A stretch of DNA of 64,000 bases from an uncultured Eubacteriales bacterium (GCA_949288175.1 CASEIV010000003.1:24043-88042); one strand, 5' to 3'; shown: positions 7,440 through 63,244, counted from the first letter of the stretch. Notes: a model not told the origin generated them from the letters alone. A program made the numbers and translations.

Positions 7440-7725
7440 AAGTATCAAAAATACCCTTATGCATAAAGCATAAGGGCGAATGATATTCACGGTACCACCT
7501 TATTTATATAATAATTTGCTTGTATATTTGTGTTTTCTCCGAAAATCTATTGTTTTATAATGCAAATATTTATATATCTCTTTAGCCTATAACGTTGCTT
7601 AAACGGACATTCTTACTATTATTTCAGAATATCAACAAAAAAGCTACCTTCCATTTATCATGATTTAAGAAGCTCCCAGCCAACGACTTCTATTCTCTAA
7701 AAATCTGTGTAAATGTACTCCTCTT
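7440..7725 (-). promoter_or_regulatory. T-box riboswitch leader of valS, with an upstream extended -10 promoter and a terminator hairpin
   Basis: Minus-strand AAATAAGGTGGTACCGTG T-box sequence (plus ggtaccacc at 7491-7499). Terminator cccttatgc/gcataaggg followed by a T-run at 7455-7477. Stem I region AGAGAATAGAAGTCGTTGG contains GUC/GUU valine codons. Promoter TTGTAA ... TGTCATAAT at ~7730-7765. Confidence 0.7.
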
Positions 7726-7820
7726 TTTTATCGTCTTTTTCTTTTATGTTAATATTATGACACATTTTTATAATTTTTACAAGTGTTTCTTTTAAATTTA
7801 TAAAATTTATAAAATAAAGG

Positions 7821-8047
7821 TTATAGTTCAGACTTTTCCATTAAGAGGAACGATATGGTAGATTTTTAAACGTTCGAATGCAACCAAAGTCGTTTTAGAA
7901 ATTCTTATATCTAAGTCGTAAAAGGTCCTGTTTCCGGGTATCGTTACGATTTAGATATTAGAATTTCTTAAACGGGAATCGGCGGGTAGCCGAGAACTTT
8001 AAAAATCTACCATATCGTTCCTCTTAATGGGAAAGTCTGAACTGTAA
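7821..8047. repeat. 227-bp hairpin element: ~50-bp near-perfect inverted-repeat arms (2 mismatches) around a 127-bp core; MITE-like or structured ncRNA
   Basis: Left arm 7821-7870 (ttatagttcagacttttccattaagaggaacgatatggtagatttttaaa) is the reverse complement of right arm 7998-8047. It lies between the adh 3' end and the valS promoter. Confidence 0.65.
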
Positions 8048-8071
8048 CAAATAATAGGGCTGAAAAATCGT

Positions 8072-9235
8072 TTATTGTGCTGCTCTTCTATATAATTCTA
8101 TGAAATCTTCCTTAGTAACTTCTCTTGGATTTCCTGGTTTACATGGGTCATTCATTGCTTTTTCAGCAAGCATTTCAAAATCTTCTTCTTTTGCTCCATA
8201 ATCTGTAATTTTTGTATCAATTCCTACTGTTTTGCTTAATTCTGAAATCATCCATACAAATGTATTAATCACATCTTGGTCATTTAAGTGTTCTGCATCT
8301 AGTCTTCCAATATTCATTAAGATTTCTCTAAATCTTTGAGCTGTTGCAGGGTCTTCTCCATTAAATCTCATAACTGTTGGCAATAACATCGCATTAGCAA
8401 TTCCATGTGGTGTATCATATACAGCACCTAATTGGTGTGCCATTGAATGAACAATTCCAAGTCCTACATTTGAGAATCCCATTCCAGCAATATATTGTGC
8501 CATTCCCATCATTTCAATTGCTTCTTCATTTTTCTCATTAACAGCTGATGGTAAATATTTAAATATCATTTGAATAGCCTTCATATGAAACATATCTGAC
8601 ATTTCATTATGTGCTTTTGTAATATATCCTTCTACTGCATGTGTTAATGCATCCATTCCTGTTGCTGCTGCTAAACTTTTTGGCATTGATCCCATTAATT
8701 CTGAATCAATAATTGCTAAAATTGGAATATCATTAGGGTCTACACATACCATTTTTACTTCTGCATCTTCATCTGTAATAACATAATTTATAGTTACTTC
8801 TGCCGCTGTTCCTGCTGTTGTTGGTAAAGCAATGATAGGCATTCCTTTATTGGCTGTATCAGATGCTCCATTTAAAGATTTGATATCTGCTCTATCTGGG
8901 TTTGTCATAACAATGGAAATTCCTTTTGCTGTATCAATACTTGAACCTCCACCTACTGCTACAATTAAATCTGCTCCTGAATTTTTACATGCTTCAACTC
9001 CATCTGTTACATTTTTAATTGTTGGATTTGGTTTAATCTCATCATATAAGTCATAAGGAACATTTGCTTTATTTATTACTTCCTCAACTTTAGCTGTTAC
9101 TCCAGCTTCTACTAAAGATTTATCACTTACTAAAAATACTTTTTTAAATCCTCTTTTTTGAATTTCTCCTGCAAGTTCTTCTCTTGCTCCTTTTCCAAAA
9201 TATGATGTTTCATTTAAAACAAATTTTACTGACAT
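8072..9235 (-). CDS. iron-containing alcohol dehydrogenase (FucO / 1,3-propanediol / butanol dehydrogenase family)
   Basis: GGGSxxD motif (AVGGGSSIDTAKG), His-rich metal site, 387 aa. Confidence 0.9.
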   Translation of the reverse strand: MSVKFVLNETSYFGKGAREELAGEIQKRGFKKVFLVSDKSLVEAGVTAKVEEVINKANVPYDLYDEIKPNPTIKNVTDGVEACKNSGADLIVAVGGGSSIDTAKGISIVMTNPDRADIKSLNGASDTANKGMPIIALPTTAGTAAEVTINYVITDEDAEVKMVCVDPNDIPILAIIDSELMGSMPKSLAAATGMDALTHAVEGYITKAHNEMSDMFHMKAIQMIFKYLPSAVNEKNEEAIEMMGMAQYIAGMGFSNVGLGIVHSMAHQLGAVYDTPHGIANAMLLPTVMRFNGEDPATAQRFREILMNIGRLDAEHLNDQDVINTFVWMISELSKTVGIDTKITDYGAKEEDFEMLAEKAMNDPCKPGNPREVTKEDFIELYRRAAQ

Positions 9236-10263: not shown

Positions 10264-11406
10264 TTAATCTCCCAAGCAAATTCCGATATCTCTAGCTGTT
10301 TTTACTAAATCATCATCCATTGTTACATATCTTACATTACTTTCAGCTGTACCGCCTTGAACTGCTCCAATTTCTTTATTTTCTCCTACGACTACTTCTA
10401 ATGGTACACAGTCTAATTCTCCATTTTTGATAACAGTTAAAACACCAAATTTTCCTTCCATAGCAAGTTCTACTGCTTTTGCACCATATTTCGTAGATAA
10501 TACTCTATCATATGCTGTTGGTGTTCCTCCTCTTTGCATATATCCTAAAATTGTACATCTTGATTCTAATCCTGTCAATTCTTGAAGTTCTTTGGCAACT
10601 CTATTTCCTTCACCACCAAATTTAACACTGATTCCTGCTTTATTATCAATACCTTCTGCTGAATGTGTTGTTTGTCCAGCATCTTTTGGATGTGCCCCTT
10701 CTGAAACAACTACAACACTAAATCTTTTTCCATTTTCTTTTCTTTTATTAATTGCTTCTGCTGCTTTATGAATATCATATGGTATTTCTGGTATTAAAGC
10801 AACATCTGCTCCTCCTGAAATAGCTGATTCTAAGGCAATCCAACCTGCAAATCTTCCCATAACTTCTAATACCATGATTCTATCATGTGTCTCTGCTGTT
10901 GTGTGTAATCTATCTAACGCTTCAGTTGCTACATGAACAGCAGTATTATATCCAAATGTAACATCTGTACATGCAACATCATTATCAATTGTTTTTGGCA
11001 CTCCAATTGTATTAATTCCTTTTAAAAATAAGTCTCTTGCTGATTTTTGTGTACTATCTCCACCTAATGTAAACACACAATCAAATCCCGCTTCTTTTAC
11101 ATTTTTTACACATTGATCTGATAAATCTTCATATGTCACTGTTCCATCTTCATGTTCTACTTTATAATGGAAAACAATTGCATTTGTCGAAGAACCAATA
11201 ATTGATCCACCTTTTGGCAATATTCCTGAAGCAATTTCATTTCCATCTAATCTAATATAATTGTTTTTTACAAGTCCTCTGTATCCATCGATATAACCGT
11301 AACATTCTATTCCATTTGTTTCACATGTTTTTTTGATTGCTCTAATTACTGCATTAAATCCTGATACATCTCCACCATTTGCTAGTATTGCTACTTTCTT
11401 TAACAT
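10264..11406 (-). CDS. pfk: 6-phosphofructokinase (long form, possibly PPi-dependent)
   Basis: GGDGS-like LGGDST, MGR motif (VMGRFAGW), N-terminal ILANGGDVSGFNAVI. Confidence 0.85.
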   Translation of the reverse strand: MLKKVAILANGGDVSGFNAVIRAIKKTCETNGIECYGYIDGYRGLVKNNYIRLDGNEIASGILPKGGSIIGSSTNAIVFHYKVEHEDGTVTYEDLSDQCVKNVKEAGFDCVFTLGGDSTQKSARDLFLKGINTIGVPKTIDNDVACTDVTFGYNTAVHVATEALDRLHTTAETHDRIMVLEVMGRFAGWIALESAISGGADVALIPEIPYDIHKAAEAINKRKENGKRFSVVVVSEGAHPKDAGQTTHSAEGIDNKAGISVKFGGEGNRVAKELQELTGLESRCTILGYMQRGGTPTAYDRVLSTKYGAKAVELAMEGKFGVLTVIKNGELDCVPLEVVVGENKEIGAVQGGTAESNVRYVTMDDDLVKTARDIGICLGD

Positions 11407-11548
11407 AAAAATCCTCCCTTTCTCTTGTTTATGTCCATATATTATTATATCAATATTATGGAAAATTACAAGTTTTTGGAAAGATTTTTTTTATTTATTA
11501 ACATTTAAATTTACTTTTTACAAAATTTTAAATAACATTCTTTTATAT

Positions 11549-11971
11549 TTAAACAATCGCAAACGTCAATTCTCCTTTTACTGCTACTTTTCCATCAACT
11601 GTTGCTAATGCTTCTCCTATTCCAATAGGACCTTTTCTTTTAATAATTTTTACTTCTAATTTTAATCTATCACCAGGAACCACTTGTCTTTTAAATCTTA
11701 ATTTATCAATTCCTCCAAAAAGTGCATTCCTTCCTTTATTTTCTTCCATAGAAAGAATAGCCACTGCACCAGTTTGTGCCAAAGATTCTACAATTAAAAC
11801 ACCTGGCATAATTGGGTTTCCAGGAAAATGTCCCTTGAAATAATATTCATCTTCACTCACATTTTTATATGCTACTGCACTTTCTCCTGGTATATATTCT
11901 TCTACTTCATCAATCATTAAAAATGGGTCTCTTTGAGGAATAATTTCTTTAATTTGTTCTTTATTTAACAT
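11549..11971 (-). CDS. fabZ: 3-hydroxyacyl-ACP dehydratase
   Basis: Hot-dog fold motif [16 protein letters not shown]. Confidence 0.9.
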
Positions 11972-12008
11972 TTATCTTAACCTCCATTCTATTATTTTAA
12001 TAAAAACT

Positions 12009-12208
12009 AAAATTGTTGTTATCATATATGAAATAAATTTTGAATGTGATTGGAGATATGTTAGAATTTGTTAATCATATATTGAGGAATGTTCACGGTA
12101 CTCACGGAAGTGAGGGTCTGAGTGAAAGAGGCTCAATATATGATGTTACAAATTCTTAAATATCGTATTGAACCGAAAAATTTATTTCATATATGATAAC
12201 AACAATTT
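12009..12208 (-). repeat. fab-operon structured intergenic repeat, copy 1 (fabZ|accB)
   Basis: Conserved core tgaatgtgattggagatat...gagggtctgagtgaaagaggctc...cgtattgaaccgaaa, flanked by a perfect 31-bp inverted repeat aaattgttgttatcatatatgaaataaattt. Confidence 0.7.
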
Positions 12209-12221
12209 TAGTGAATCATTA

Positions 12222-12689
12222 TTATTTAATTTTAAATAAAGGTGTACCATATTCTACAACATCTTCATTTTTTACACAAATCTCTACAACTTCACCATCA
12301 AATTCTGATTCGATTTCATTCATTAATTTCATAGCTTCTACAATACATACCACTTGTCCTTTTGAAATTTTATCTCCTACTTTTACATATGGATCTTTAT
12401 CTGGTGATGAACTTGCGTAAAAAGTACCTACCATTGGTGATTTGATAACTTTGTAATTTTCTTCTTCTTTCTTTTCTGTTACTGTAACCATTCCTTTTTC
12501 TTCTTGTGGTCTTATAGCAGGAACAGACATTGGTGCACTTGCTTCTATCACATGTGGTTCTACAATCACTTCTCTTTTCTCACTTTTTTTCATACTAATT
12601 TTCACACCATCTGGAAATTCAATTTCTAATTCTTCCAATTTAGAATTTCCCATATCGTCCATCAATTTTTTAATTTCTTTATACTCCAT
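12222..12689 (-). CDS. accB: biotin carboxyl carrier protein of acetyl-CoA carboxylase
   Basis: Biotinyl-lysine motif EAMKLMNEIE. Confidence 0.85.
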   Translation of the reverse strand: MEYKEIKKLMDDMGNSKLEELEIEFPDGVKISMKKSEKREVIVEPHVIEASAPMSVPAIRPQEEKGMVTVTEKKEEENYKVIKSPMVGTFYASSSPDKDPYVKVGDKISKGQVVCIVEAMKLMNEIESEFDGEVVEICVKNEDVVEYGTPLFKIK

Positions 12690-12734
12690 CTTACTACCTC
12701 CATTTTTGTTTTTATTTTATACTATTTTTTAAAT

Positions 12735-13976
12735 CTATCCTTCATATTTCTTTAATAAAATGCTACTATTGTGTCCACCAAATCCTAATGAATTAGAAAT
12801 GGCATATTTTACTTCCACATTTCTTCCTTCATTTGGAACAACATCTAAATCACATTCTTCATCTGGAACTTTGTAATTAATTGTTGCTGGAACAAAGCCT
12901 TCTTCAATTGCTTTTGCACATACAATTGCTTCTACACCACCTGCTGCTCCTAATAAATGTCCTGTATGACCTTTTGTTGAACTTACCATTACTTTTTTAG
13001 CAGATTCTTCTCCTAAAGCTGTTTTAATGGCTTGAGTCTCATATGCATCATTTAAATGTGTTGATGTACCATGTGCATTGATATATGTAATTTCTTCTGG
13101 ATCTACTTTTGCTTCTTCCATAGCAATTTTCATAGCTCTTGCACCGCCTTCTCCTCCTGGAGCAGGTGATGTGATATGATATGCATCAGATGTTGCACCA
13201 TATCCAACCATTTCTGCATAAATTTTAGCTCCTCTTTTTTTCGCATGTTCTAGTTCTTCTAAAACAATAACTCCAGCACCTTCTCCCATAACAAATCCAC
13301 TTCTTTCTTTGTCAAATGGAATACTAGCTCTTGTTTTATCTTCAGATTTTGTCAAAGCTTTTATATTTGCAAATCCTGCTATTCCAAGTGGTGTGATTCC
13401 TGCTTCTGTTCCTCCTGCTAATACAACATCTTGATATCCATGTTTTATCATTCTGAAACTTTCTCCAATACTATGTGTACCTGTAGCACATGCTGTAACC
13501 ATAGCTATAGATTCTCCTTTTGCTCCAATATCAATTGCTACATTTCCTGTTGCCATATTCAAAATTCCCATAGGAATATACATTGGTGAAACTCTATCTG
13601 GACCTTTTGTCATACATTTTTCATGTTCTGTTTCAATTGTTTCTATTCCTCCAATTCCTGATCCAATAATAATTCCTACTCTTTCCATATTTTCATTTTC
13701 TTTGTCTAAGCCACTATCTTTCCATGCTTCTCTTGCGGCTATCATTGCATATTGAGAAAATTTGTCTAATCTTTTTGCTTCTCTTTTATCAAAATAATCT
13801 TCTGGATTATATCCTTTTAATTCAGCTGCTAATTTTACCTTAAAATTTGAAATATCAAAACTTTTTATTTCTTCAATTCCACACTTACCTTCCTTAATAC
13901 TATTCCAAAATTCTTCTGTATTATTTCCTATTGGAGTCAAAGCTCCTAATCCTGTAATAACAACTCTTCTTTCCAT
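12735..13976 (-). CDS. fabF: 3-oxoacyl-ACP synthase II
   Basis: KAS II active site and C-terminal GHxxGAAG/NSFGFGG motifs. Confidence 0.9.
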   Translation of the reverse strand: MERRVVITGLGALTPIGNNTEEFWNSIKEGKCGIEEIKSFDISNFKVKLAAELKGYNPEDYFDKREAKRLDKFSQYAMIAAREAWKDSGLDKENENMERVGIIIGSGIGGIETIETEHEKCMTKGPDRVSPMYIPMGILNMATGNVAIDIGAKGESIAMVTACATGTHSIGESFRMIKHGYQDVVLAGGTEAGITPLGIAGFANIKALTKSEDKTRASIPFDKERSGFVMGEGAGVIVLEELEHAKKRGAKIYAEMVGYGATSDAYHITSPAPGGEGGARAMKIAMEEAKVDPEEITYINAHGTSTHLNDAYETQAIKTALGEESAKKVMVSSTKGHTGHLLGAAGGVEAIVCAKAIEEGFVPATINYKVPDEECDLDVVPNEGRNVEVKYAISNSLGFGGHNSSILLKKYEG

Positions 13977-14029
13977 CTTTCTCTTCCTTTCATTTTCTAA
14001 TACTACATTCTTATTTCAAATACAATATA

Positions 14030-14199
14030 TTTTTTATAAAGTACATTGAATGTGATTGGAGATATTTTAGAATTTGTTAACAATTTATTGAGGGATGTTC
14101 ACGGCACTCACATCGTGAGGGTCTGAGTGAAAGAGGCTCAATAAATTGTGCTACAAATTTTTAGATATCGTATTGAACCGAAATATACTTTATAAAAAA
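14030..14199 (-). repeat. fab-operon structured intergenic repeat, copy 2 (fabF|fabG)
   Basis: Same core as copy 1. Flanking inverted repeat is ttttttataaagtac / (g)tactttataaaaaa, a different sequence from copy 1 that still base-pairs. Confidence 0.7.
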
Positions 14200-14224
14200 T
14201 ATATTGTACTTGAAATGTAACCTT

Positions 14225-15007
14225 TTACATGACCATTCCGCCATCTACATTAATTACTTGACCAGTGATATAAGCACTTTCATCTGATCCTAAGAAATAA
14301 ATTAAATTTGCTACTTCATTTGCTGTTCCCATTCTCTTTAATGGAATTTGATTATGTATATTTTCCTTTACTTCATCTGATAAAACTGCAGTCATATCTG
14401 TTTCTATAAAACCAGGTGCTACTGCATTTGCTCTAATATTTCTTGAAGCCAATTCTTTTGCTACACTTTTTGTAAATCCGATAATTCCTGCTTTTGATGC
14501 TGCATAATTACATTGTCCTGCATTTCCTGCAACACCTACAACAGATGATAAATTGATAATACTTCCTTTTCTTTTTTTCATCATATATTTTGTAACTGCT
14601 TTTGTGACAATATATGTTCCTTTTAAATTTACTTCTATTACTTTGTCAAATTCTTCTTCACTCATTCTCATTAATAAATTATCTTTTGTGATACCTGCAT
14701 TATTAACTAATACATCTATACTTCCAAATTCTTCAATTGCTTTTTTTACCAATTCTTCAATTGCTTCTTTGTCTGTTACATCTGCTTGCATGATAAGTGT
14801 TTTTACACCTTTACTTTCAAATTCAGCTTTTAATTCTTCTACATTTGTTTTGCTTGAAACATAGTTTATGACAACATTATATCCATTGTCTGCAAATTTT
14901 AAGGCTACTTCTTTTCCAATTCCTCTTGAAGCTCCTGTTACAAATACTGTCTTATTTTCTTCCATCTTTCTTTTCTTCCTTTCTTTATTTAATGTCAGGG
15001 GACACAC
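14225..15007 (-). CDS. fabG: 3-oxoacyl-ACP reductase; true start probably the internal MEENKTVFVTGAS (~14965)
   Basis: SDR motifs TGASRGIG, NNAG, YxxxK. Confidence 0.9.
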   Translation of the reverse strand: MCPLTLNKERKKRKMEENKTVFVTGASRGIGKEVALKFADNGYNVVINYVSSKTNVEELKAEFESKGVKTLIMQADVTDKEAIEELVKKAIEEFGSIDVLVNNAGITKDNLLMRMSEEEFDKVIEVNLKGTYIVTKAVTKYMMKKRKGSIINLSSVVGVAGNAGQCNYAASKAGIIGFTKSVAKELASRNIRANAVAPGFIETDMTAVLSDEVKENIHNQIPLKRMGTANEVANLIYFLGSDESAYITGQVINVDGGMVM

Positions 15008-15102
15008 CTTACCTTTAGGTCACATCTACTTGAGTTAAGGAATGTCCCCTCCCCTTGTGACTTACTTATGACCTTTGCTTGAGTTCTTCCTCTTTTTTTA
15101 CT

Positions 15103-16074
15103 TTATTCTTGCATTAAGTATTTTTCTAGGCTTTCCATATTATTTATGTTAAATGTTTTTGCTTCTTTATTATCTTTCTTTACAAATCCTGTCAAAGTTC
15201 TTCCTGGTCCAATTTCTATATATTCTTCTACATCTTCTTGTTCCATTAACTTGATTGCCTTATCAAATCTTACTGGACTAATGATATGATTTGCTAGAAT
15301 TTCTTTTATGTTATCATTTTCTGTATAATATGTACCATCGATATTTTTTATAACTTTAGTCTTTGTATCAAGGTGAAAATCAATATTCATCAATTCTTTT
15401 TCATATGCTTCTTTTGCTTTTTCCAATTTTATTGTATGGAATGGTCCACTGGTATTTAACTTTAATGCTCTTTTGGCACCTTGTGCTTTTAATGTTTCCA
15501 TTGCTTCATCAATAGCATCTTCTTGTCCTGATATAACAGTTTGTACACTGCAATTATAATTAGCAACGACAATAAATTTATTTTCTTTAGAAATTTCTTT
15601 GCAAACTTCTTCTATTTTTCCTGAATCTAGTCCAATAATTGCTGCCATAGAAAATTTTTCATCAGGTAAAAGATTTCCCATGTAATAGCCTCTTTTTTGA
15701 ATTAATTTGATTCCATCTTCAAAGCTGATGATTCCAGCATAAATTAAAGCTCCATATTCTCCTAAACTTAATCCTGTTGCAATATCTGCTTCTATTCCTT
15801 TTGCTTTTAAAACTTCTAATATTGCTAAACTAGTTGTTAAAATAGCAATTTGTGTGTTTTCTGTTTTGTTTAATTCTTCCTCTGGACCTTCGAAACAAAG
15901 TTTTTTTACATCAATTCCAGATATTCTTGAAGCCTCATCATAAATTTTTTTCGCTTCATCATATTTTTCATAAATATCTTTTCCCATTCCTACGACCTGT
16001 GCGCCTTGTCCTGGAAATAAAAATGCTCTTTTCATTCTTTCTTCATCCTTTCTTTTTATAAAATTTATTATCAT
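15103..16074 (-). CDS. fabD: malonyl-CoA:ACP transacylase
   Basis: FLFPGQGAQ and GLSLGEY active-site serine motif. Confidence 0.9.
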   Translation of the reverse strand: MIINFIKRKDEERMKRAFLFPGQGAQVVGMGKDIYEKYDEAKKIYDEASRISGIDVKKLCFEGPEEELNKTENTQIAILTTSLAILEVLKAKGIEADIATGLSLGEYGALIYAGIISFEDGIKLIQKRGYYMGNLLPDEKFSMAAIIGLDSGKIEEVCKEISKENKFIVVANYNCSVQTVISGQEDAIDEAMETLKAQGAKRALKLNTSGPFHTIKLEKAKEAYEKELMNIDFHLDTKTKVIKNIDGTYYTENDNIKEILANHIISPVRFDKAIKLMEQEDVEEYIEIGPGRTLTGFVKKDNKEAKTFNINNMESLEKYLMQE

Positions 16075-16082
16075 TTGTTTTT

Positions 16083-16282
16083 AATTACTTATATATTTAT
16101 ATGGAATAAATTTTGAATGTGATTGGAGATATTTTAGAATTTGTTAATAATTTATCGAGGAATGTTCACGATACTCACGAAGTGAGGGTCTGAGTGAAAG
16201 AGGCTCGGGTAAATTATGTTACAAATTCTTAAATATCGTATTGAACCGAAAAATTTATAAAATATAAATATATAAGTAATTA
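16083..16282 (-). repeat. fab-operon structured intergenic repeat, copy 3 (fabD|fabH)
   Basis: Same core. Flanking inverted repeat is aattacttatatatttatat / atataaatatataagtaatt, again a distinct sequence that still base-pairs. Confidence 0.7.
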
Positions 16283-16289
16283 TAGTCTT

Positions 16290-17225
16290 TTATATTTCCA
16301 TCAAAATACTACCTGTATTTAATCCTCCACCATATCCTAACAAAATAATTTTATCACCTTTCTTTAGAAAATTACTTTTTTGCATATCATATAAAGCAAT
16401 TGGTATGCTGGCACAAAAAGTATTTCCTCTTTCTTGTATATTTGTATACATCTTATCCATTCCTATATGTAATCTTGATGCAATTGCTTTCATAATTTTT
16501 AAATTTGACTGATGGGCTACGATATATTTTACACTATTTAATGATATATTAGCTTTTTCCAGTAATTCATTAATGTTTTCAACTGTTTTCGTAACTGCAT
16601 ATTTATATACTTCTTTTCCATTCATATATACATTTTTACCATATTGATATGTTAATATATTATTTTTGTCTTCTTCTGCTTTAACATTTGATATATACAT
16701 TTTTTGATAATCATATGTTTCTTCTTTTTCTATTAGTGTTGCTCCAGCACCGTCAGATAAAACAACTGCTGTACCTATATCTTGTTTGTCAATGATTTCA
16801 GATAGTTTATCAACCCCAATAATTAATGCTTTTTTTATATCTCGTGAATCCATATATACCTTTGCAATATCAAATGCATTAATATATCCTCCACATCCAG
16901 CTAATATATCGAAACAAATACAGGGAGGAATTTCTAATTTTTTCTGTATATAATTAGATATTCCTGGCATTAACATATCTGTACTTGTTGTCGTTGTTAT
17001 AATAAGGCCTATATCTTGTTTTTCATCTGCTAAGGTAATAACATTTTTTGCAGCTCCTAATGCCATTTCTTGTATTGTTTCTTTTATTGCATAATATCTA
17101 TTTTTTATTCCTGTCCTTTTTTCGATGTATCCACTTTCTAAGTTCAGTATTTCTTCTAACTCATCATTTTTTATCTGTCTTTGAGGAAAATATATTCCGT
17201 TAGCGATTATATGTATATTACTCAC
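16290..17225 (-). CDS. fabH: 3-oxoacyl-ACP synthase III
   Basis: KAS III architecture with active-site Cys (AGCGG). Confidence 0.85.
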   Translation of the reverse strand: MSNIHIIANGIYFPQRQIKNDELEEILNLESGYIEKRTGIKNRYYAIKETIQEMALGAAKNVITLADEKQDIGLIITTTTSTDMLMPGISNYIQKKLEIPPCICFDILAGCGGYINAFDIAKVYMDSRDIKKALIIGVDKLSEIIDKQDIGTAVVLSDGAGATLIEKEETYDYQKMYISNVKAEEDKNNILTYQYGKNVYMNGKEVYKYAVTKTVENINELLEKANISLNSVKYIVAHQSNLKIMKAIASRLHIGMDKMYTNIQERGNTFCASIPIALYDMQKSNFLKKGDKIILLGYGGGLNTGSILMEI

Positions 17226-33620: not shown

Positions 33621-34262
33621 TTACGCTTTTTTATCTTCTTCAATTGCTGGTTTTTCTTCAGCTTTTTTAGAATCTTCTTTTACTTCTTCTTTAGCTGGTT
33701 CTTCAGCTTTAGCTTCTTCTACTTTTTCAGCTTTTTCTTCTTTTTTAGGTTCTTCTACTTCTTTAACCTCTTCAACAACTTCTTCAGAAACTGTATCAAC
33801 TGTTTCTTGAACAGCTACATTTTCTGTTTCAACAGCTGGTGCTTCTTCTGGAGCTTCCTCTACTGCTGGTTCCTCTACTAAGTCTTCTTTGATAGTAATT
33901 TCTCTATCTTCAATTCTTGCTCCAACTTGTTCCTTAGTCTTAGCAGCTTTACCTACTCTGTCTCTTAGGTAGTATAATTTTGCTCTTCTTGCTTTACCTA
34001 CTCTTACTAATTCTACTTTTTCAACTAATGGAGAGTGTACTAAAAATGTTTTTTCAACACCTACACCATAAGAATTTTTTCTTACTGTAAATGTTTGGTT
34101 AACGCCTCCACCTTGTACTTTTATAATGATTCCTTCAAAAACTTGGATTCTTTCTTTGTTTCCTTCTTTTATTCTTACGTGTACTCTTACTGTATTACCA
34201 ACTTTTAATTCTGGTATCTTATTTTTCAATTGTTCATGTTCAATTGATTTTATAATATCCAT
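33621..34262 (-). CDS. rplS: 50S ribosomal protein L19 with an unusual ~95 aa acidic E/K/A/V/P-rich C-terminal extension
   Basis: N-terminal 115 aa is canonical L19 (...[16 protein letters not shown]). The ORF then continues 95 aa with no stop. Confidence 0.85.
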
Positions 34263-34306
34263 TTTAGAATTTCCTCCTTTTCTTTATTATTGTCAGGGGA
34301 CACCCC

Positions 34307-34966
34307 CTATAATATATCTGGTCTTTTTTTCTTTGTTATTTCTAAAGACTTTTCTTTTCTCCATTTTTCTATATTTTCGTGATGCCCTGAAAGTAATATT
34401 TCTGGAACTTTCATTCCTTCAAAAACCTCTGGTCTTGTATATTGTGGATATTCTAGAAGTCCATTTGAAAAACTTTCTTCTTTTATAGAATCTTCTTTCA
34501 AAACACCTTCTACATATCGACTGACACTATCTATTAGCACCATTGCTGGGATTTCTCCCCCTGTTAATACATAGTCTCCTATAGATATTTCTTCATCTAC
34601 AATTTTATCAAGTACCCTTTGGTCAATTCCTTCATAATGCCCACAAAGTATAATTAAATGGTTTTCTTTTGATAATTCTTCTACCTTATCTTGATTTAAT
34701 GGCTTTCCTTGTGGTGACATATAGATAACTTTTGCATTTCTATCTTTTATAGACTGATATGCATCATATACCACATCTGGTTTCATTACCATTCCTGCAC
34801 CACCACCATAAGGTGTATCATCTACTTTTTTATGTTTGTCTTTTGAAAAATCTCTAATATTGATTAAATGAATATCAATTAGGTCTTTTTCAATTGCTTT
34901 TCCAATAATACTTTGATTTAATATTTCAAACATTTCTGGAAACAGTGTTAAAACATCAAATTTCAT
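34307..34966 (-). CDS. trmD: tRNA (guanine37-N1)-methyltransferase
   Basis: SPOUT-knot motifs; full-length TrmD similarity. Confidence 0.9.
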
Positions 34967-43794: not shown

Positions 43795-44065
43795 CCATGT
43801 CATCAAAAAAACCATCTCTTCCTAGTTTCTGTTAGGACGAAATGGTTATTTTCCGTGGTACCACCTAAATTTATTAGTATGTTTTATACTAACCTCGTTA
43901 TAGTTTTAACGGTCCAACCGCCTTTTCCTACTATTATTTCAAAAAAGGACCTAAAAAGTGAATTTTCTATATACGATATTTAATGGTTTCCAGCCAATGA
44001 CCATTTTCTCTTGTAAATATTTGAAATATATATACTTTGCTTTTTAATTGGTTTTGCTCTATTTT
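43795..44065 (-). promoter_or_regulatory. T-box riboswitch leader, Phe-specific
   Basis: Minus-strand AATTTAGGTGGTACCACGG T-box (plus ggtaccacc at 43857-43865), a terminator with a U7 tract, and a Stem I candidate specifier GAAAAUUCAC (UUC flanked by A). Confidence 0.7.
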
Positions 44066-62644: not shown

Positions 62645-63085
62645 TTATTTTTTATTATTTGATTTACAATCTTCACATATTCCATAAATCGTGATACTAT
62701 TTATATCCATATTGTTTCCTATTTGTTTTAATAATTCTTTTGAAATTTCGTCTTTATTAAAATTATCATAGAAATCAAATATGTTCCCACATTTCTCGCA
62801 GATTGCATGAGAATGTTCTTTATATAAATAGTCATATCTGTCTGGTCCTACTGTCATATTTAATTTTTTGATTTCTCCTAATTCTACTAAGATGTTAATA
62901 TTTCTGTATACTGTACTTTTACTTATCTGAGGTTCTTTTTCTAAAACAAAATGATAAATTTCCTCAGCTGTTGGATGTACTAGGTTTTCTTTCATAACAT
63001 CTAGTATCGCTTCTCTTTGTTTGGAATAGTTGTTCATAAATCTCTCCTTAAAATTAGGAATTATTCCTAATTTCGGTTTTATCAT
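62645..63085 (-). CDS. Fur-family transcriptional regulator (PerR-like; co-operonic with rubrerythrin)
   Basis: HTH, HxH, and CxxC...CxxC motifs. Confidence 0.8.
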   Translation of the reverse strand: MIKPKLGIIPNFKERFMNNYSKQREAILDVMKENLVHPTAEEIYHFVLEKEPQISKSTVYRNINILVELGEIKKLNMTVGPDRYDYLYKEHSHAICEKCGNIFDFYDNFNKDEISKELLKQIGNNMDINSITIYGICEDCKSNNKK

Positions 63086-63244
63086 ATATCTTTTTTATGT
63101 GTTTGTCAAGGAGATTTTGTAAATATTTTGTATATATTTTTTGTGTTTTCTAGTATAGTTTTGTCAAGTTTTTGATAGACTTGCCATTTTTTGTAGAATT
63201 GTGTTATAATGTTTTTTATAAAATATAATAGGAGCTGATCTTGT

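What the first reader, a model, noticed from the sequence alone, without database searches (positions are those of the whole stretch)
12009..16282. Three ~180-200 bp near-identical structured repeats occupy the fabZ|accB, fabF|fabG and fabD|fabH gaps; their outer stems covary
The cores (~140 nt: tgaatgtgattggagatat(t)ttagaatttgttaa...gttcacgRYactcac...gtgagggtctgagtgaaagaggctc...tgttacaaattcttaaatatcgtattgaaccgaaa) are more than 90% identical and contain internal hairpins (ctcacNNNgtgag; attgagg...ggctcaat; L/R arms atattttagaatttgttaa / ttacaaattcttaaatat). Each copy is extended by a 15-31 bp flanking inverted repeat whose sequence is completely different in the three copies but always perfectly complementary: copy 1 aaattgttgttatcatatatgaaataaattt, copy 2 ttttttataaagtac, copy 3 aattacttatatatttatat. 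That pattern fits either selection for a long closing helix in a structured RNA embedded in the fab polycistron, or a mobile element that inserts into pre-existing palindromes. acpP, which normally sits between fabG and fabF, is absent, and a repeat lies where it would be. Candidate roles include RNA processing or stability elements, attenuators dividing the operon, or a MITE-like family.
Basis: seen in the sequence. Interest (0 to 1): 0.65.

Follow-up and report, generated by a model that had tools for sequence, protein, structure and literature searches.

The report
Hairpin-forming miniature transposons in fab operon
The three repeats are real, but they are copies of a widespread family of small, non-coding, hairpin-shaped mobile elements (MITEs) of uncultured gut Clostridia, not a device of the fatty-acid operon; what is unusual is that their central fold evolves more slowly than the neighbouring genes.

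Summary
Three ~200-bp palindromic repeats lie in the fabZ|accB, fabF|fabG and fabD|fabH gaps, all on the + strand, antisense to fab. A fourth relative lies at 7820-8048.

They are not fab-specific. An exact 20-mer of the core hit at least 114 loci in ~35 uncultured Clostridia/Bacillota MAGs, up to 11 or more per genome. 116 of 118 copies are intergenic, next to unrelated housekeeping genes, with no recurrent ORF nearby.

Full-length relatives have 16-bp terminal inverted repeats (GTTACAGTTCAGAC...) and 8-bp AT-rich target-site duplications. Orthologous fab operons show presence/absence at every gap, so this is a MITE family.

Two layers of evolution are visible:
- **Inner hairpin (~140 nt plus a 45-50-nt apical module).** It shows true covariation across subfamilies. 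Wobble pairs are strand-specific (11 G·T, 0 A·C on the + strand). Orthologous copies are 98.4% identical against 94.8% for the flanking, mostly coding DNA.
- **Outer stems.** They stay complementary without strand bias. This fits DNA-level fold-back or template-switch copying rather than RNA selection.

No Rfam family, paper, phage or plasmid matches. The transposase and the role of the conserved core remain unknown.

The parts
12007..12212 (+). Copy c1 (type-1 element) in the fabZ|accB gap. Whole palindrome: outer stem 12009-12039 / 12182-12212 (31/31 bp), inner conserved hairpin 12040-12181. Possible degenerate ends and an ATTATTT(T)AAT direct repeat just outside (about 11991 and 12219).
   Evidence: MFE -87.1 on +, -76.8 on -. 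Identical in same-species contigs L115, L118 and L120-L122. Orthologous copy in L057 is 98.2% identical in the inner part.
12084..12134 (+). Apical module of c1: GAGGAATGTTCACGGTA-CTCAC GGAA GTGAG-GGTCTGAGTGAAAGAGGCTC. It is almost invariant in all type-1 copies. It comprises helix UUCAC/GUGAA, a variable hairpin CUCNN/NNGAG, and conserved unpaired GRAUG, GGUA, GGUCUGA and AGAGG.
   Evidence: invariant columns in alignment A1; helix 3 never varies and helix 4 covaries A-U/G-C
14013..14216 (+). Copy c2 in the fabF|fabG gap. Outer stem 14013-14043 / 14186-14216 (31 bp, 1 A·C mismatch), inner hairpin 14046-14186, apical module 14090-14139. Two T·G wobbles in stem P1 on the + strand.
   Evidence: Ortholog in L056 is 97.6% identical. 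Empty sites in L057 and L038.
16082..16282 (+). Copy c3 in the fabD|fabH gap. Outer stem 16082-16102 / 16262-16282, inner hairpin 16113-16254, apical module 16157-16206. Against the empty site of L057, the insert is about 236 bp flanked by TCTTTT(T)AT on both sides.
   Evidence: Orthologs in L023 and L029 show compensatory changes.
7820..8048 (+). Fourth member of the superfamily, with a type-3 apical domain and a 51-bp perfect outer stem. It has intact termini GTTATAGTTCAGAC...GTCTGAACTGTAAC and a flanking AAATAA(A/T)(A)G direct repeat. In L002 the same genomic site holds a type-1 element, and 14 nt of that element's right end (TAGGGCTGAA) remain next to this one.
   Evidence: (MFE -133.6)
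12690..12734 (.). Empty site. The accB|fabF spacer is 45 nt here, whereas L037, L064, L099 and L050 carry a type-1 element and L023, L038 and L113 carry type-3 or type-2 elements in the same gap.
63070..63242 (-). Empty site corresponding to the full-length type-1 element of L041 (GTTACAGTTCAGACC...GGTCTGGACTGTAAC). There is no palindrome here.
11549..17225 (-). Host context, the fab operon on the - strand: fabZ 11549-11971, accB 12222-12689, fabF 12735-13976, fabG 14225-15007 (ORF limits), fabD 15103-16074 (ORF limits), fabH 16290-17225. No acpP.
   Evidence: ORFs; Pfam families on the identical genes of L115

Best explanation
The three repeats are old, now probably immobile copies of a family of miniature inverted-repeat transposable elements (MITEs) that populate the short AT-rich intergenic spacers of a clade of uncultured, low-GC gut Clostridia.

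**Shown.**
- An intact element is 230-270 bp and non-coding.
- It ends in 16-bp inverted repeats (GTTACAGTTCAGAC...) and is flanked by an 8-bp AT-rich target duplication.
- It is gained and lost between related species.

**Inferred.**
- It is moved in trans by a cut/copy-and-paste (DDE-type) transposase encoded elsewhere. That enzyme was not identified.

**Two layers.** The whole element is one long hairpin-forming palindrome, built in two layers.

1. *Inner layer.* This is ~140 nt of stems around a 45-50-nt apical module.
   - Shown: it is conserved in sequence or by covariation across subfamilies.
   - Shown: it tolerates G·T but not A·C on one strand only.
   - Shown: it evolves about 3 times more slowly than the flanking genes.
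   - Inferred: a single-stranded form of that strand (a transcript or ssDNA) is recognised by something, most likely a protein needed for the element's propagation or control, or it has been co-opted by the host.

2. *Outer layer.*
   - Shown: these stems diverge fast in sequence but stay complementary, with no strand bias.
   - Inferred: they are kept and extended as a DNA palindrome by intramolecular template switching (fold-back copying of one arm from the other) during replication, not by selection on an RNA helix.

**In the fab operon (inferred, untested).** The copies sit antisense, so the polycistronic mRNA carries the complement of each hairpin at three gene junctions. Any effect on processing, stability or polarity is a by-product, as for REP, ERIC or Correia elements.
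For: **Dispersal.**
- 116 of 118 copies are intergenic.
- The only recurrent neighbouring ORFs are housekeeping genes.

**Mobility.**
- Every fab gap is filled in some related genomes and empty in others, and sometimes holds a different subfamily or apical type.
- Further empty/filled pairs are seen.

**TIR and TSD.**
- 11 full-length copies end in GTTA[CT]NNTTCAS.../...STGAANN[AG]TAAC.
- Their 8-nt flanks match at a mean of 5.9/8, against 2.65/8 for offset controls.
- 8 of 11 flank pairs match at 6/8 or better, against about 1% of controls.

**No palindrome at empty sites**.

**Inner structure.**
- 95.1% of cells are paired, against 82.2% in shuffles.
- 198 double-change cells, against 52.
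- Covariation score 0.331, against 0.098 (0 of 500 shuffles reach it) and at most 0.085 for slid partners.

**Strand specificity.**
- In stems P1/P2 there are 11 distinct isolated G·T events and 0 A·C.
- In the outer arms the count is 14 to 12.
- The + strand MFE is about 10-20 kcal/mol lower than the - strand in all four window copies.

**Constraint.**
- Orthologous inner parts are 98.4% identical against 94.8% for flanks, with inner at least as conserved as flank in 20 of 20 pairs.
- Compensatory double changes between orthologs number 13 (inner) and 18 (outer), against 0.35 and 1.7 expected.

**Local copying.** In L038 and L113, an 11-nt stretch of the ancestral right flank (ATTACCTTTGC, present in the empty site of L065) recurs inverted on the left of the element.

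**Precedent.** Template switching is reported to create, homogenise and expand hairpin arms (PMC8794818, PMC13100816).
Against: - No autonomous element or transposase with these termini was found. All TIR pairs in hand are 227-269 bp apart, and nothing recurs next to copies.
- The three fab copies lack recognisable TIRs. Only c3 has a convincing TSD-like repeat, and c1 a possible one.
- A double-strand cut-and-paste mechanism does not by itself explain three things: a strand-specific fold, a sequence-invariant centre, and an orientation bias. That bias is 55 antisense to 12 sense between co-directional genes, and 74 to 23 against local GC skew.
- Slow evolution could partly reflect gene conversion among copies. 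The c3/L023 inner stems look exchanged.
- The wobble counts are small.
- Orthologous copies are not fully independent.
- All genomes are MAGs, which assemble repeats and IS elements poorly.
Confidence: 0.75

Rival explanations
1. The conserved inner hairpin with its apical module is a functional non-coding RNA (a multicopy small or antisense RNA, a protein-binding RNA or a ribozyme). It is transcribed from the + strand and has spread on, or been domesticated from, a MITE. It persists at orthologous sites because it is useful to the host or to the element.
For: - The inner part is more conserved than the flanking genes in 20 of 20 orthologous pairs.
- The 45-50-nt apical module is invariant while the stems differ completely in sequence between subfamilies.
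- Covariation and G·U-only wobble on one strand.
- A sigma-70-like TTGAAT-16-TAGAAT sits at the same place in all three window copies, with TG upstream in c1.
Against: - No Rfam family matches, even at E up to 10.
- The -10-like box is not kept in type-2 and type-3 relatives (AACAAA, TACAAA).
- A start downstream of that box would exclude stem P1, which also shows the wobble bias.
- Promoter-like matches are no more frequent than in shuffles.
- No terminator is evident.
- No expression data are available.
- The folded strand is antisense to neighbours in about 3 of 4 copies, so read-through mRNA does not carry it.
Confidence: 0.2
2. The element moves as single-stranded DNA. A tyrosine HUH enzyme (IS200/IS605 TnpA-like or RAYT-like) recognises the folded + strand, as for REPINs and PATEs. 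The orientation bias reflects the replication fork.
For: - The fold is strand-specific.
- The hairpin has conserved bulges and asymmetric internal loops.
- Orientation is biased relative to gene direction and GC skew.
- The element is non-autonomous and intergenic.
- Precedents: PMC3116915, PMC6006769.
Against: - Full-length copies have terminal inverted repeats and 8-bp target duplications. IS200/IS605 elements and REPINs do not make these (established knowledge of those families).
- The bias is only about 3:1, and the folded strand is the lagging-sense strand, the opposite of the IS608 rule.
- The hairpin is about 5 times longer than known HUH substrates.
- No Y1 gene was seen near any copy.
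Confidence: 0.08
3. A cis-acting structured RNA of the fab operon (processing site, stabiliser or attenuator) selected for a long closing helix.
For: - Three copies lie at three intercistronic junctions of one operon.
- They are fixed in all sampled strains of the species.
- They are retained in some sister species.
Against: - The family is dispersed at unrelated loci in many genomes.
- Other species have empty gaps, or other subfamilies in the same gaps.
- The selected fold is on the antisense strand.
- The outer stems show no RNA-type wobble bias.
Confidence: 0.03
4. A mobile core that inserts into the centre of pre-existing palindromes (terminators or other repeats), which would explain the different but complementary flanks.
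For: - These genomes hold other palindromic repeat families, and some copies are nested in them; for example, the arms of L016 carry the GGGACG-box repeat.
- One site has a terminator-like hairpin in L099 where L002 and the window carry elements.
Against: - Empty sites at fabD|fabH (L057), fabZ|accB (L065), fabF|fabG (L057, L038), accB|fabF (window) and window 63.1 kb show no palindrome.
- The outer stems are homologous between copies of a subfamily and lie inside the TIRs.
Confidence: 0.03

Closest known systems
Bacterial MITEs that fold into long hairpins and show RNA-like compensatory evolution: ERIC/IRU of enterobacteria, bcr1 of the Bacillus cereus group, and Correia/NEMIS of Neisseria (from my own knowledge, not tested here)
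   Same: - Non-coding, 100-300 bp, multicopy and intergenic, often inside operons.
- Whole-length imperfect palindrome.
- TIR plus TSD.
- Presence/absence between relatives.
- Stems kept by compensatory changes.
   Different: - No sequence similarity.
- The centre (apical module) is the most conserved part, not the ends.
- At least 3 interchangeable apical modules sit on one basal scaffold.
- Orthologous copies evolve more slowly than the flanking genes.
- The host clade is uncultured gut Clostridia.
- The transposase is unknown.
REPINs (REP doublets forming hairpins) mobilised by RAYT (PMC3116915)
   Same: - Hairpin-forming intergenic repeats that replicate as a unit.
- Complementarity of the two arms is preserved.
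- A single-stranded intermediate is suspected.
- The mobilising enzyme is encoded elsewhere.
   Different: - REPINs are about 100 nt, built from two 25-35-nt REPs with a GTAG-type head, and have no TIR/TSD.
- Here the element is 230-270 bp with a 16-bp TIR and an 8-bp TSD.
- No RAYT was seen.
Quasipalindrome correction and hairpin creation by replication template switching (PMC8794818, PMC13100816, PMC7202029)
   Same: - One-step compensatory changes.
- Homogenisation and outward extension of inverted-repeat arms.
- Symmetry between the two DNA strands.
   Different: It is a mutational process, not an element. It is invoked here only for the outer stems, and was not shown directly in these genomes.
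TwoAYGGAY RNA (Rfam RF01731), the best but sub-threshold Rfam match
   Same: A long hairpin from gut Clostridiales metagenomes. The weak match covers only the long stem of c3 (28.4 bits against a gathering score of 43, E = 0.2).
   Different: It is below threshold, matches one copy only, and was not reproduced on eight related loci. I treat it as a chance match.

Membership tests
MITE (non-autonomous DNA transposon) | Short (under ~300 bp), no coding capacity | tested here: met
   Elements are 200-270 bp and contain no ORF.
MITE (non-autonomous DNA transposon) | Terminal inverted repeats | tested here: met
   A 16-bp TIR GTTACAGTTCAGAC... is present in 11 full-length relatives, including window 7820-8048. 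In c1-c3 the ends are degenerate or absent.
MITE (non-autonomous DNA transposon) | Target-site duplication of fixed length | tested here: met
   8-nt flanks match at a mean of 5.9/8 against 2.65/8 in controls, and 8 of 11 match at 6/8 or better. c3 is flanked by TCTTTT(T)AT, against TCTTAT in the empty site.
MITE (non-autonomous DNA transposon) | Many dispersed copies, with presence/absence at orthologous sites | tested here: met
   At least 114 loci, up to 11 or more per MAG. Filled and empty orthologous gaps are seen.
MITE (non-autonomous DNA transposon) | A cognate autonomous IS with the same ends, encoding the transposase | tested here: inconclusive
   None occurs in about 0.9 Mb of loci, and all TIR pairs are 227-269 bp apart. 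Whole genomes could not be scanned, and MAGs lose IS copies.
REPIN / RAYT system | No TIR/TSD; short REP units with a conserved head; single-copy RAYT gene flanked by REPs | tested here: not met
   TIR and TSD are present. There is no REP-like unit and no Y1 ORF near any copy. RAYT elsewhere in the genome is not testable.
IS200/IS605-derived PATE | Subterminal hairpins at both ends, no TIR, no TSD, insertion 3' of a fixed tetra- or pentanucleotide | tested here: not met
   TIR and an 8-bp TSD are present. There is a single whole-length hairpin rather than two subterminal ones.
Any described RNA family (Rfam 15) | Score at or above the family's gathering threshold | tested here: not met
   Only two T-box leaders pass in the window. 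Sensitive scans of the region and of 8 related loci give nothing credible.
Intrinsic terminator / attenuator of the fab operon | GC-rich stem followed by a U tract on the mRNA strand, conserved with the operon | tested here: not met
   No consistent U tract follows the hairpins on the - strand. The elements are absent from the same gaps in related genomes.
Integron attC site | R''/L''-L'/R' boxes (RYYYAAC...GTTRRRY), one per cassette, next to an integron integrase | not tested
   Considered only. By eye the sequence has no core or inverse-core boxes, the neighbours are housekeeping operon genes, and no integrase is nearby.

The most novel reading that the evidence does not exclude
The near-invariant 45-50-nt apical module (GAGGRAUGUUCACGGUA-hairpin-GGUCUGAGUGAAAGAGGCUC), and perhaps its two alternative modules on the same scaffold, is a new functional structured nucleic-acid motif. 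It would act as RNA or ssDNA of the strand antisense to host operons, for example as a protein-recruiting element, a ribozyme or an antisense regulator. It would ride on a MITE and be held by purifying selection at orthologous sites across species.
Probability: 0.22. Interest if true: 0.7.

Novelty: new member of a known kind. Interest (0 to 1): 0.4.

Why it matters
- **Annotation.** Long hairpins between genes of compact gut-Clostridia genomes should be read as a MITE family, not as operon-specific regulators. The report also supplies a ready marker (core 20-mer, TIR, TSD) for that clade.
- **A clean natural example of two hairpin layers.** Within one element, an inner layer is under strand-specific structural and sequence constraint, and an outer layer stays complementary in a strand-symmetric way. 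This separates selection on a folded single strand from fold-back copying of DNA.
- **Possible new motif.** If the conserved apical module proves to have a function, it would be a new structured motif from organisms that have no cultured representative.

Tried and rejected
1. **Rfam.** I scanned the window at gathering threshold, the region at E up to 10, and eight related loci. Only T-box, tRNA and spurious miRNA hits appeared. The TwoAYGGAY hit (28.4 bits, E = 0.2) was not reproduced.
2. **Other collections.** The core 20-mer gave 0 hits in viral contigs. BLASTN of c1 against plasmids and phages found nothing. Searching papers for core sequence strings returned only an unrelated human SNP paper.
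3. **Autonomous partner.** Clustering 690 ORFs from the loci showed only housekeeping families recurring. Regex pairing of left and right halves was uninformative because the right-hand pattern was poor. TIR pairs at IS-like spacing: none.
4. **'Outer stems are inverted duplications of donor or target flanks'.** The long unique arms have no second copy elsewhere in the loci, and many variable stems lie inside the TIRs. I therefore dropped the transduction ('onion growth') idea as the general explanation. Local copying is seen in one case (L038/L113 against L065).
5. **Insertion into pre-existing palindromes.** Rejected from the empty sites.
6. **Internal promoter TTGAAT-16-TAGAAT.** It is present in the window copies, but the -10 box is not conserved in types 2 and 3, and it would exclude stem P1. 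It is kept only as a weak point for the RNA rival.
7. **The apical core contains a third copy of the TIR (shared TCAGACC).** Not significant: 525 of 5000 shuffles do as well.
8. **Orientation as a discriminator between replication and transcription.** The two are confounded, and 11 of the 12 sense-oriented copies also sit in loci of opposite skew.
9. **First extension scripts.** The first extension attempt, anchored at the asymmetric core, failed. The first folding script timed out.
10. **By eye only.** K-turn, sarcin-ricin, T-loop, hammerhead and hairpin-ribozyme readings of the apical module showed no convincing fit. None was tested further.

Full report
**1. Observation.**

Reading 11500-16800 and searching for repeats confirm three copies of a ~140-nt conserved sequence on the + strand. 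The conserved parts lie at 12040-12181, 14046-14186 and 16113-16254. Each is extended by complementary flanks into a 200-206-bp palindrome: 12007-12212, 14013-14216 and 16082-16282.

- The invariant 25-mer GTGAGGGTCTGAGTGAAAGAGGCTC occurs 3 times, against 0 in 100 shuffles.
- Gapped core identity is 88-93%.
- The outer stems are 31/31, 30/31 and 20/20 bp.
- All large ORFs here are on the - strand.
- On an identical contig of the same species they carry the Pfam families of FabH, FabD, FabG, FabF, AccB and FabZ, and no acyl-carrier protein.
- Each copy folds into a single long hairpin. MFE is -87.1, -60.8 and -65.2 kcal/mol on the + strand, z = -9 to -17. The - strand is about 10 kcal/mol weaker in each of these three (about 20 for the fourth copy of section 2).

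**2. Not specific to fab.**

- All matches are in uncultured Clostridia/Bacillota MAGs from human, mouse, chicken, rumen and sheep gut.
- About 35 MAGs are represented, with up to 11 copies in one (RUG13298), 9 in BRZ_BI__bin48 and 8 in A107_L4_350350_idba_bin.26.
- 116 of 118 copies are intergenic.
- ORFs recurring near copies are only orthologous housekeeping genes (fab genes, an ABC transporter, and proteins that look like a phosphoglucosamine mutase, ValS and a topoisomerase). No transposase-like family recurs.
- The window holds a fourth relative at 7820-8048 with a different apical domain.

Nothing matches in Rfam, viral contigs, plasmids or phages, or the paper library by sequence.

**3. 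Mobile.**

About fifteen loci contain orthologous fab operons at 84-95% identity. Every gap is polymorphic.

| Gap | State in different genomes |
|---|---|
| fabZ\|accB | Window-type element in the window and L057; a different subfamily in L038 and L113; an unrelated repeat in L037, L050, L064 and L099; 47 nt and no element in L065 |
| accB\|fabF | Empty in the window (45 nt); type-1, type-2 or type-3 elements in seven other genomes |
| fabF\|fabG | Filled in the window and L056; 46-53 nt in L057 and L038, still without acpP, so the repeat did not replace that gene |
| fabD\|fabH | Filled in the window, L023 and L029; type-2 elements in L037 and L056; empty in L057 (fabH stop abuts the fabD ribosome-binding site) and in L040 |

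Outside fab, the full-length element of L041 corresponds to an empty site at window 63070-63242. At window 7820-8048, a type-3 element sits where L002 has a type-1 element, and a 14-nt remnant of the latter lies beside it. None of the empty sites contains a palindrome. This rejects insertion into pre-existing palindromes.

**4. Ends.**

Many copies extend beyond the window-type outer stem to a common terminus. Eleven full-length elements (229-269 bp) start with GTTA[CT]NNTTCA[GC]A and end with its complement.

- The 8 nt on either side match each other at a mean of 5.9/8. The left flank compared with offset right-flank positions gives 2.65/8.
- 8 of 11 pairs match at 6/8 or better, against about 1% of controls.
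- Examples are TTTTTTCT/TTTTTTCT in L001 and CTTTATTT/CTTTATTC in L036.

Terminal inverted repeats, a fixed-length target duplication, small size, no ORF, high copy number and insertion polymorphism together define a MITE.

By that standard the three fab copies are degenerate.
- Their ends no longer show the TIR.
- c3 is still flanked by TCTTTT(T)AT on both sides, where the empty site of L057 reads TCTTAT.
- c1 is bracketed by ATTATTT(T)AAT.

They are identical in five to eight metagenomic contigs of the same species and present at the same sites in sister species. The insertions are therefore old and fixed.

**5. Anatomy and two evolutionary layers.**

Clustering gives about 18 sequence groups. 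Their stems can be entirely different in sequence. All share the same plan:

- a large asymmetric internal loop (GAATGYGATTGGAG on the left, CGTATTGARCCGAR on the right);
- stem P1, with an invariant TTAGAA/TTCTT segment and a conserved T·T or small bulge;
- stem P2;
- an apical module, GAGG-RATGTTCACGGTA-[CTCNN...NNGAG]-GGTCTGAGTGAAAGAGG-CTC, which is almost invariant.

Relatives with the same basal plan carry two other apical modules. Type 2 is CAAGTAGGAGAATCTCA...TGAGAGGTGCCTACTTG. Type 3 is ...AAAGGGTCCTGTCTCCGGGTAT.... In some of these the P1 helix is strand-swapped. This suggests inversion of the centre by recombination between the arms (read from the sequences; inference).

*Inner layer.* On a 54-sequence alignment (A1), RNAalifold finds 30 pairs, 15 of them with compensatory changes. 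For a hand-set structure of 32 pairs:

| Measure | Observed | Shuffled | Note |
|---|---|---|---|
| Cells paired | 95.1% | 82.2% | |
| Double-change cells | 198 | 52 | |
| Covariation score | 0.331 | 0.098 | 0 of 500 shuffles reach it; at most 0.085 for partners slid by 1-3 columns |

- Isolated mismatches inside P1/P2 comprise 11 distinct G·T events in different copies and subfamilies, and no A·C.
- This is the reverse of what the local mutational asymmetry would favour (my inference from the skew).
- It identifies the window + strand as the strand whose fold matters. That strand is antisense to fab.
- Between orthologous copies the inner ~170 nt are 98.4% identical, while the flanking 2 x 200 nt, mostly coding, are 94.8% identical. 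The inner part is at least as conserved as the flank in 20 of 20 pairs.

*Outer layer.*
- Beyond the basal loop the arms are complementary over a median of 18 ungapped bp and up to 117 bp. Shuffled flanks give a median of 4 and at most 7.
- Mismatches there are 14 G·T to 12 A·C, so there is no strand preference.
- Orthologous copies nevertheless differ by 18 compensatory double changes, where 1.7 are expected from independent mutation.
- In L038 and L113, 11 nt of ancestral right-flank sequence (present in the empty site of L065) reappear inverted on the left of the element.

A strand-symmetric process that copies one arm from the other explains this better than selection on an RNA helix. Intramolecular template switching at quasipalindromes is such a process. 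It is reported to create, homogenise and expand hairpin arms (PMC8794818, PMC13100816, PMC7202029). This step is inferred, not shown.

**6. What remains open.**

The orientation of copies is biased but not fixed.
- Between co-directional genes there are 55 antisense and 12 sense copies.
- Relative to local GC skew the split is 74 to 23.
- In the window the + strand has GC skew -0.21, and 37 of 45 large ORFs are on the - strand. The folded strand is therefore the lagging-sense strand.
- Replication and transcription are confounded here.

A double-strand transposition mechanism does not need a strand-specific fold or an invariant centre. Something else must act on the single-stranded + strand. 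Candidates are a transcript of the element, ssDNA during replication or transposition, or a host function.

A sigma-70-like TTGAAT-16-TAGAAT lies in the left arm of all three window copies. I give it little weight for three reasons.
- Its -10 box is not kept in types 2 and 3.
- It would start transcription inside P1.
- Such matches are as common in shuffles.

The ssDNA/HUH reading fits the strand specificity, but it conflicts with the TIR and TSD. No transposase was found in the DNA available.

**7. Verdict.**

The repeats are real. Their 'covarying' outer stems are real, but they are a DNA-level feature. The elements belong to a previously undescribed MITE family of uncultured gut Clostridia.

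That criterion is met.

The part that keeps some interest is the inner hairpin. It is invariant at its centre, it covaries, it is strand-specific, and it evolves more slowly than the neighbouring genes. Its function is unknown.

Noticed in passing
window 7469-7740 (-) and 43830-44057 (-): Two T-box leaders above Rfam's gathering score (99.9 and 119.5 bits). The first lies just downstream (in window coordinates) of the type-3 element at 7820-8048, which therefore sits between the gene at 8072-9235 and this leader.
   Followed up: no
window 14985-15050 and 34270-34310; also L037/L064/L099 (fabZ|accB gap), L038 (fabD|fabH gap), L051, L072, L016: A second, unrelated repeat family built on GGGGACG / TGTC...GGACA boxes (e.g. 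AAAATGTCCCAAACAGAAACGTCCCCAAAAGGACA). In other loci it forms long, nearly perfect palindromes with variable centres. In the window a copy lies between fabD and fabG, just upstream of the fabG ribosome-binding site, and another lies before the gene ending at 34262. It may be another MITE family or a 5'-UTR motif.
   Followed up: partly
L064, L113, L050, L023: fabF|fabG gap: A third hairpin repeat (~90 nt: GCATTTTTGATGTCAACTTCAAGCTGAAGGCATAC TTTTT GTATGTC...GAAAATGTGC) occupies the gap that holds copy c2 in the window. L038 keeps only its right flank.
   Followed up: no
L042 around 7700-7750: One type-1 copy has a 20-nt tandem duplication inside the apical module (ATGTTCACGGTACTCACGTT twice).
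   Followed up: no
L023 and L038 (accB|fabF gap) versus window copies: In some type-2 and type-3 relatives the P1 helix has its two strands swapped relative to type 1 (ACAAATTCTTA on the left, TTAGAATTTGT on the right), while the basal loop keeps its orientation. It looks as if the centre of the palindrome had been inverted (flip/flop).
   Followed up: partly
L099 2470-2520, orthologous to window ~7800-8060: Where the window and L002 carry elements, L099 has a terminator-like bidirectional hairpin (AAAAATTCTTAGAG TAATTAA CTCTAAGAATTTTT). This is a possible ancestral state of that site.
   Followed up: no
L121 and L122 versus window 10264-11406: Two contigs encode an identical AccB but have different genes (86-aa and 438-aa ORFs) downstream of fabZ instead of the phosphofructokinase gene. 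L123, also with an identical AccB, has a different accB|fabZ spacer carrying the GGGACG-box repeat. The exact-protein look-up therefore mixes strains or species.
   Followed up: no
L013 (Bacilli MAG), L110 (Lachnospira MAG): The core 20-mer also occurs at contig ends in MAGs labelled Bacilli and Lachnospira. This may reflect a wider host range, horizontal transfer or binning contamination.
   Followed up: no
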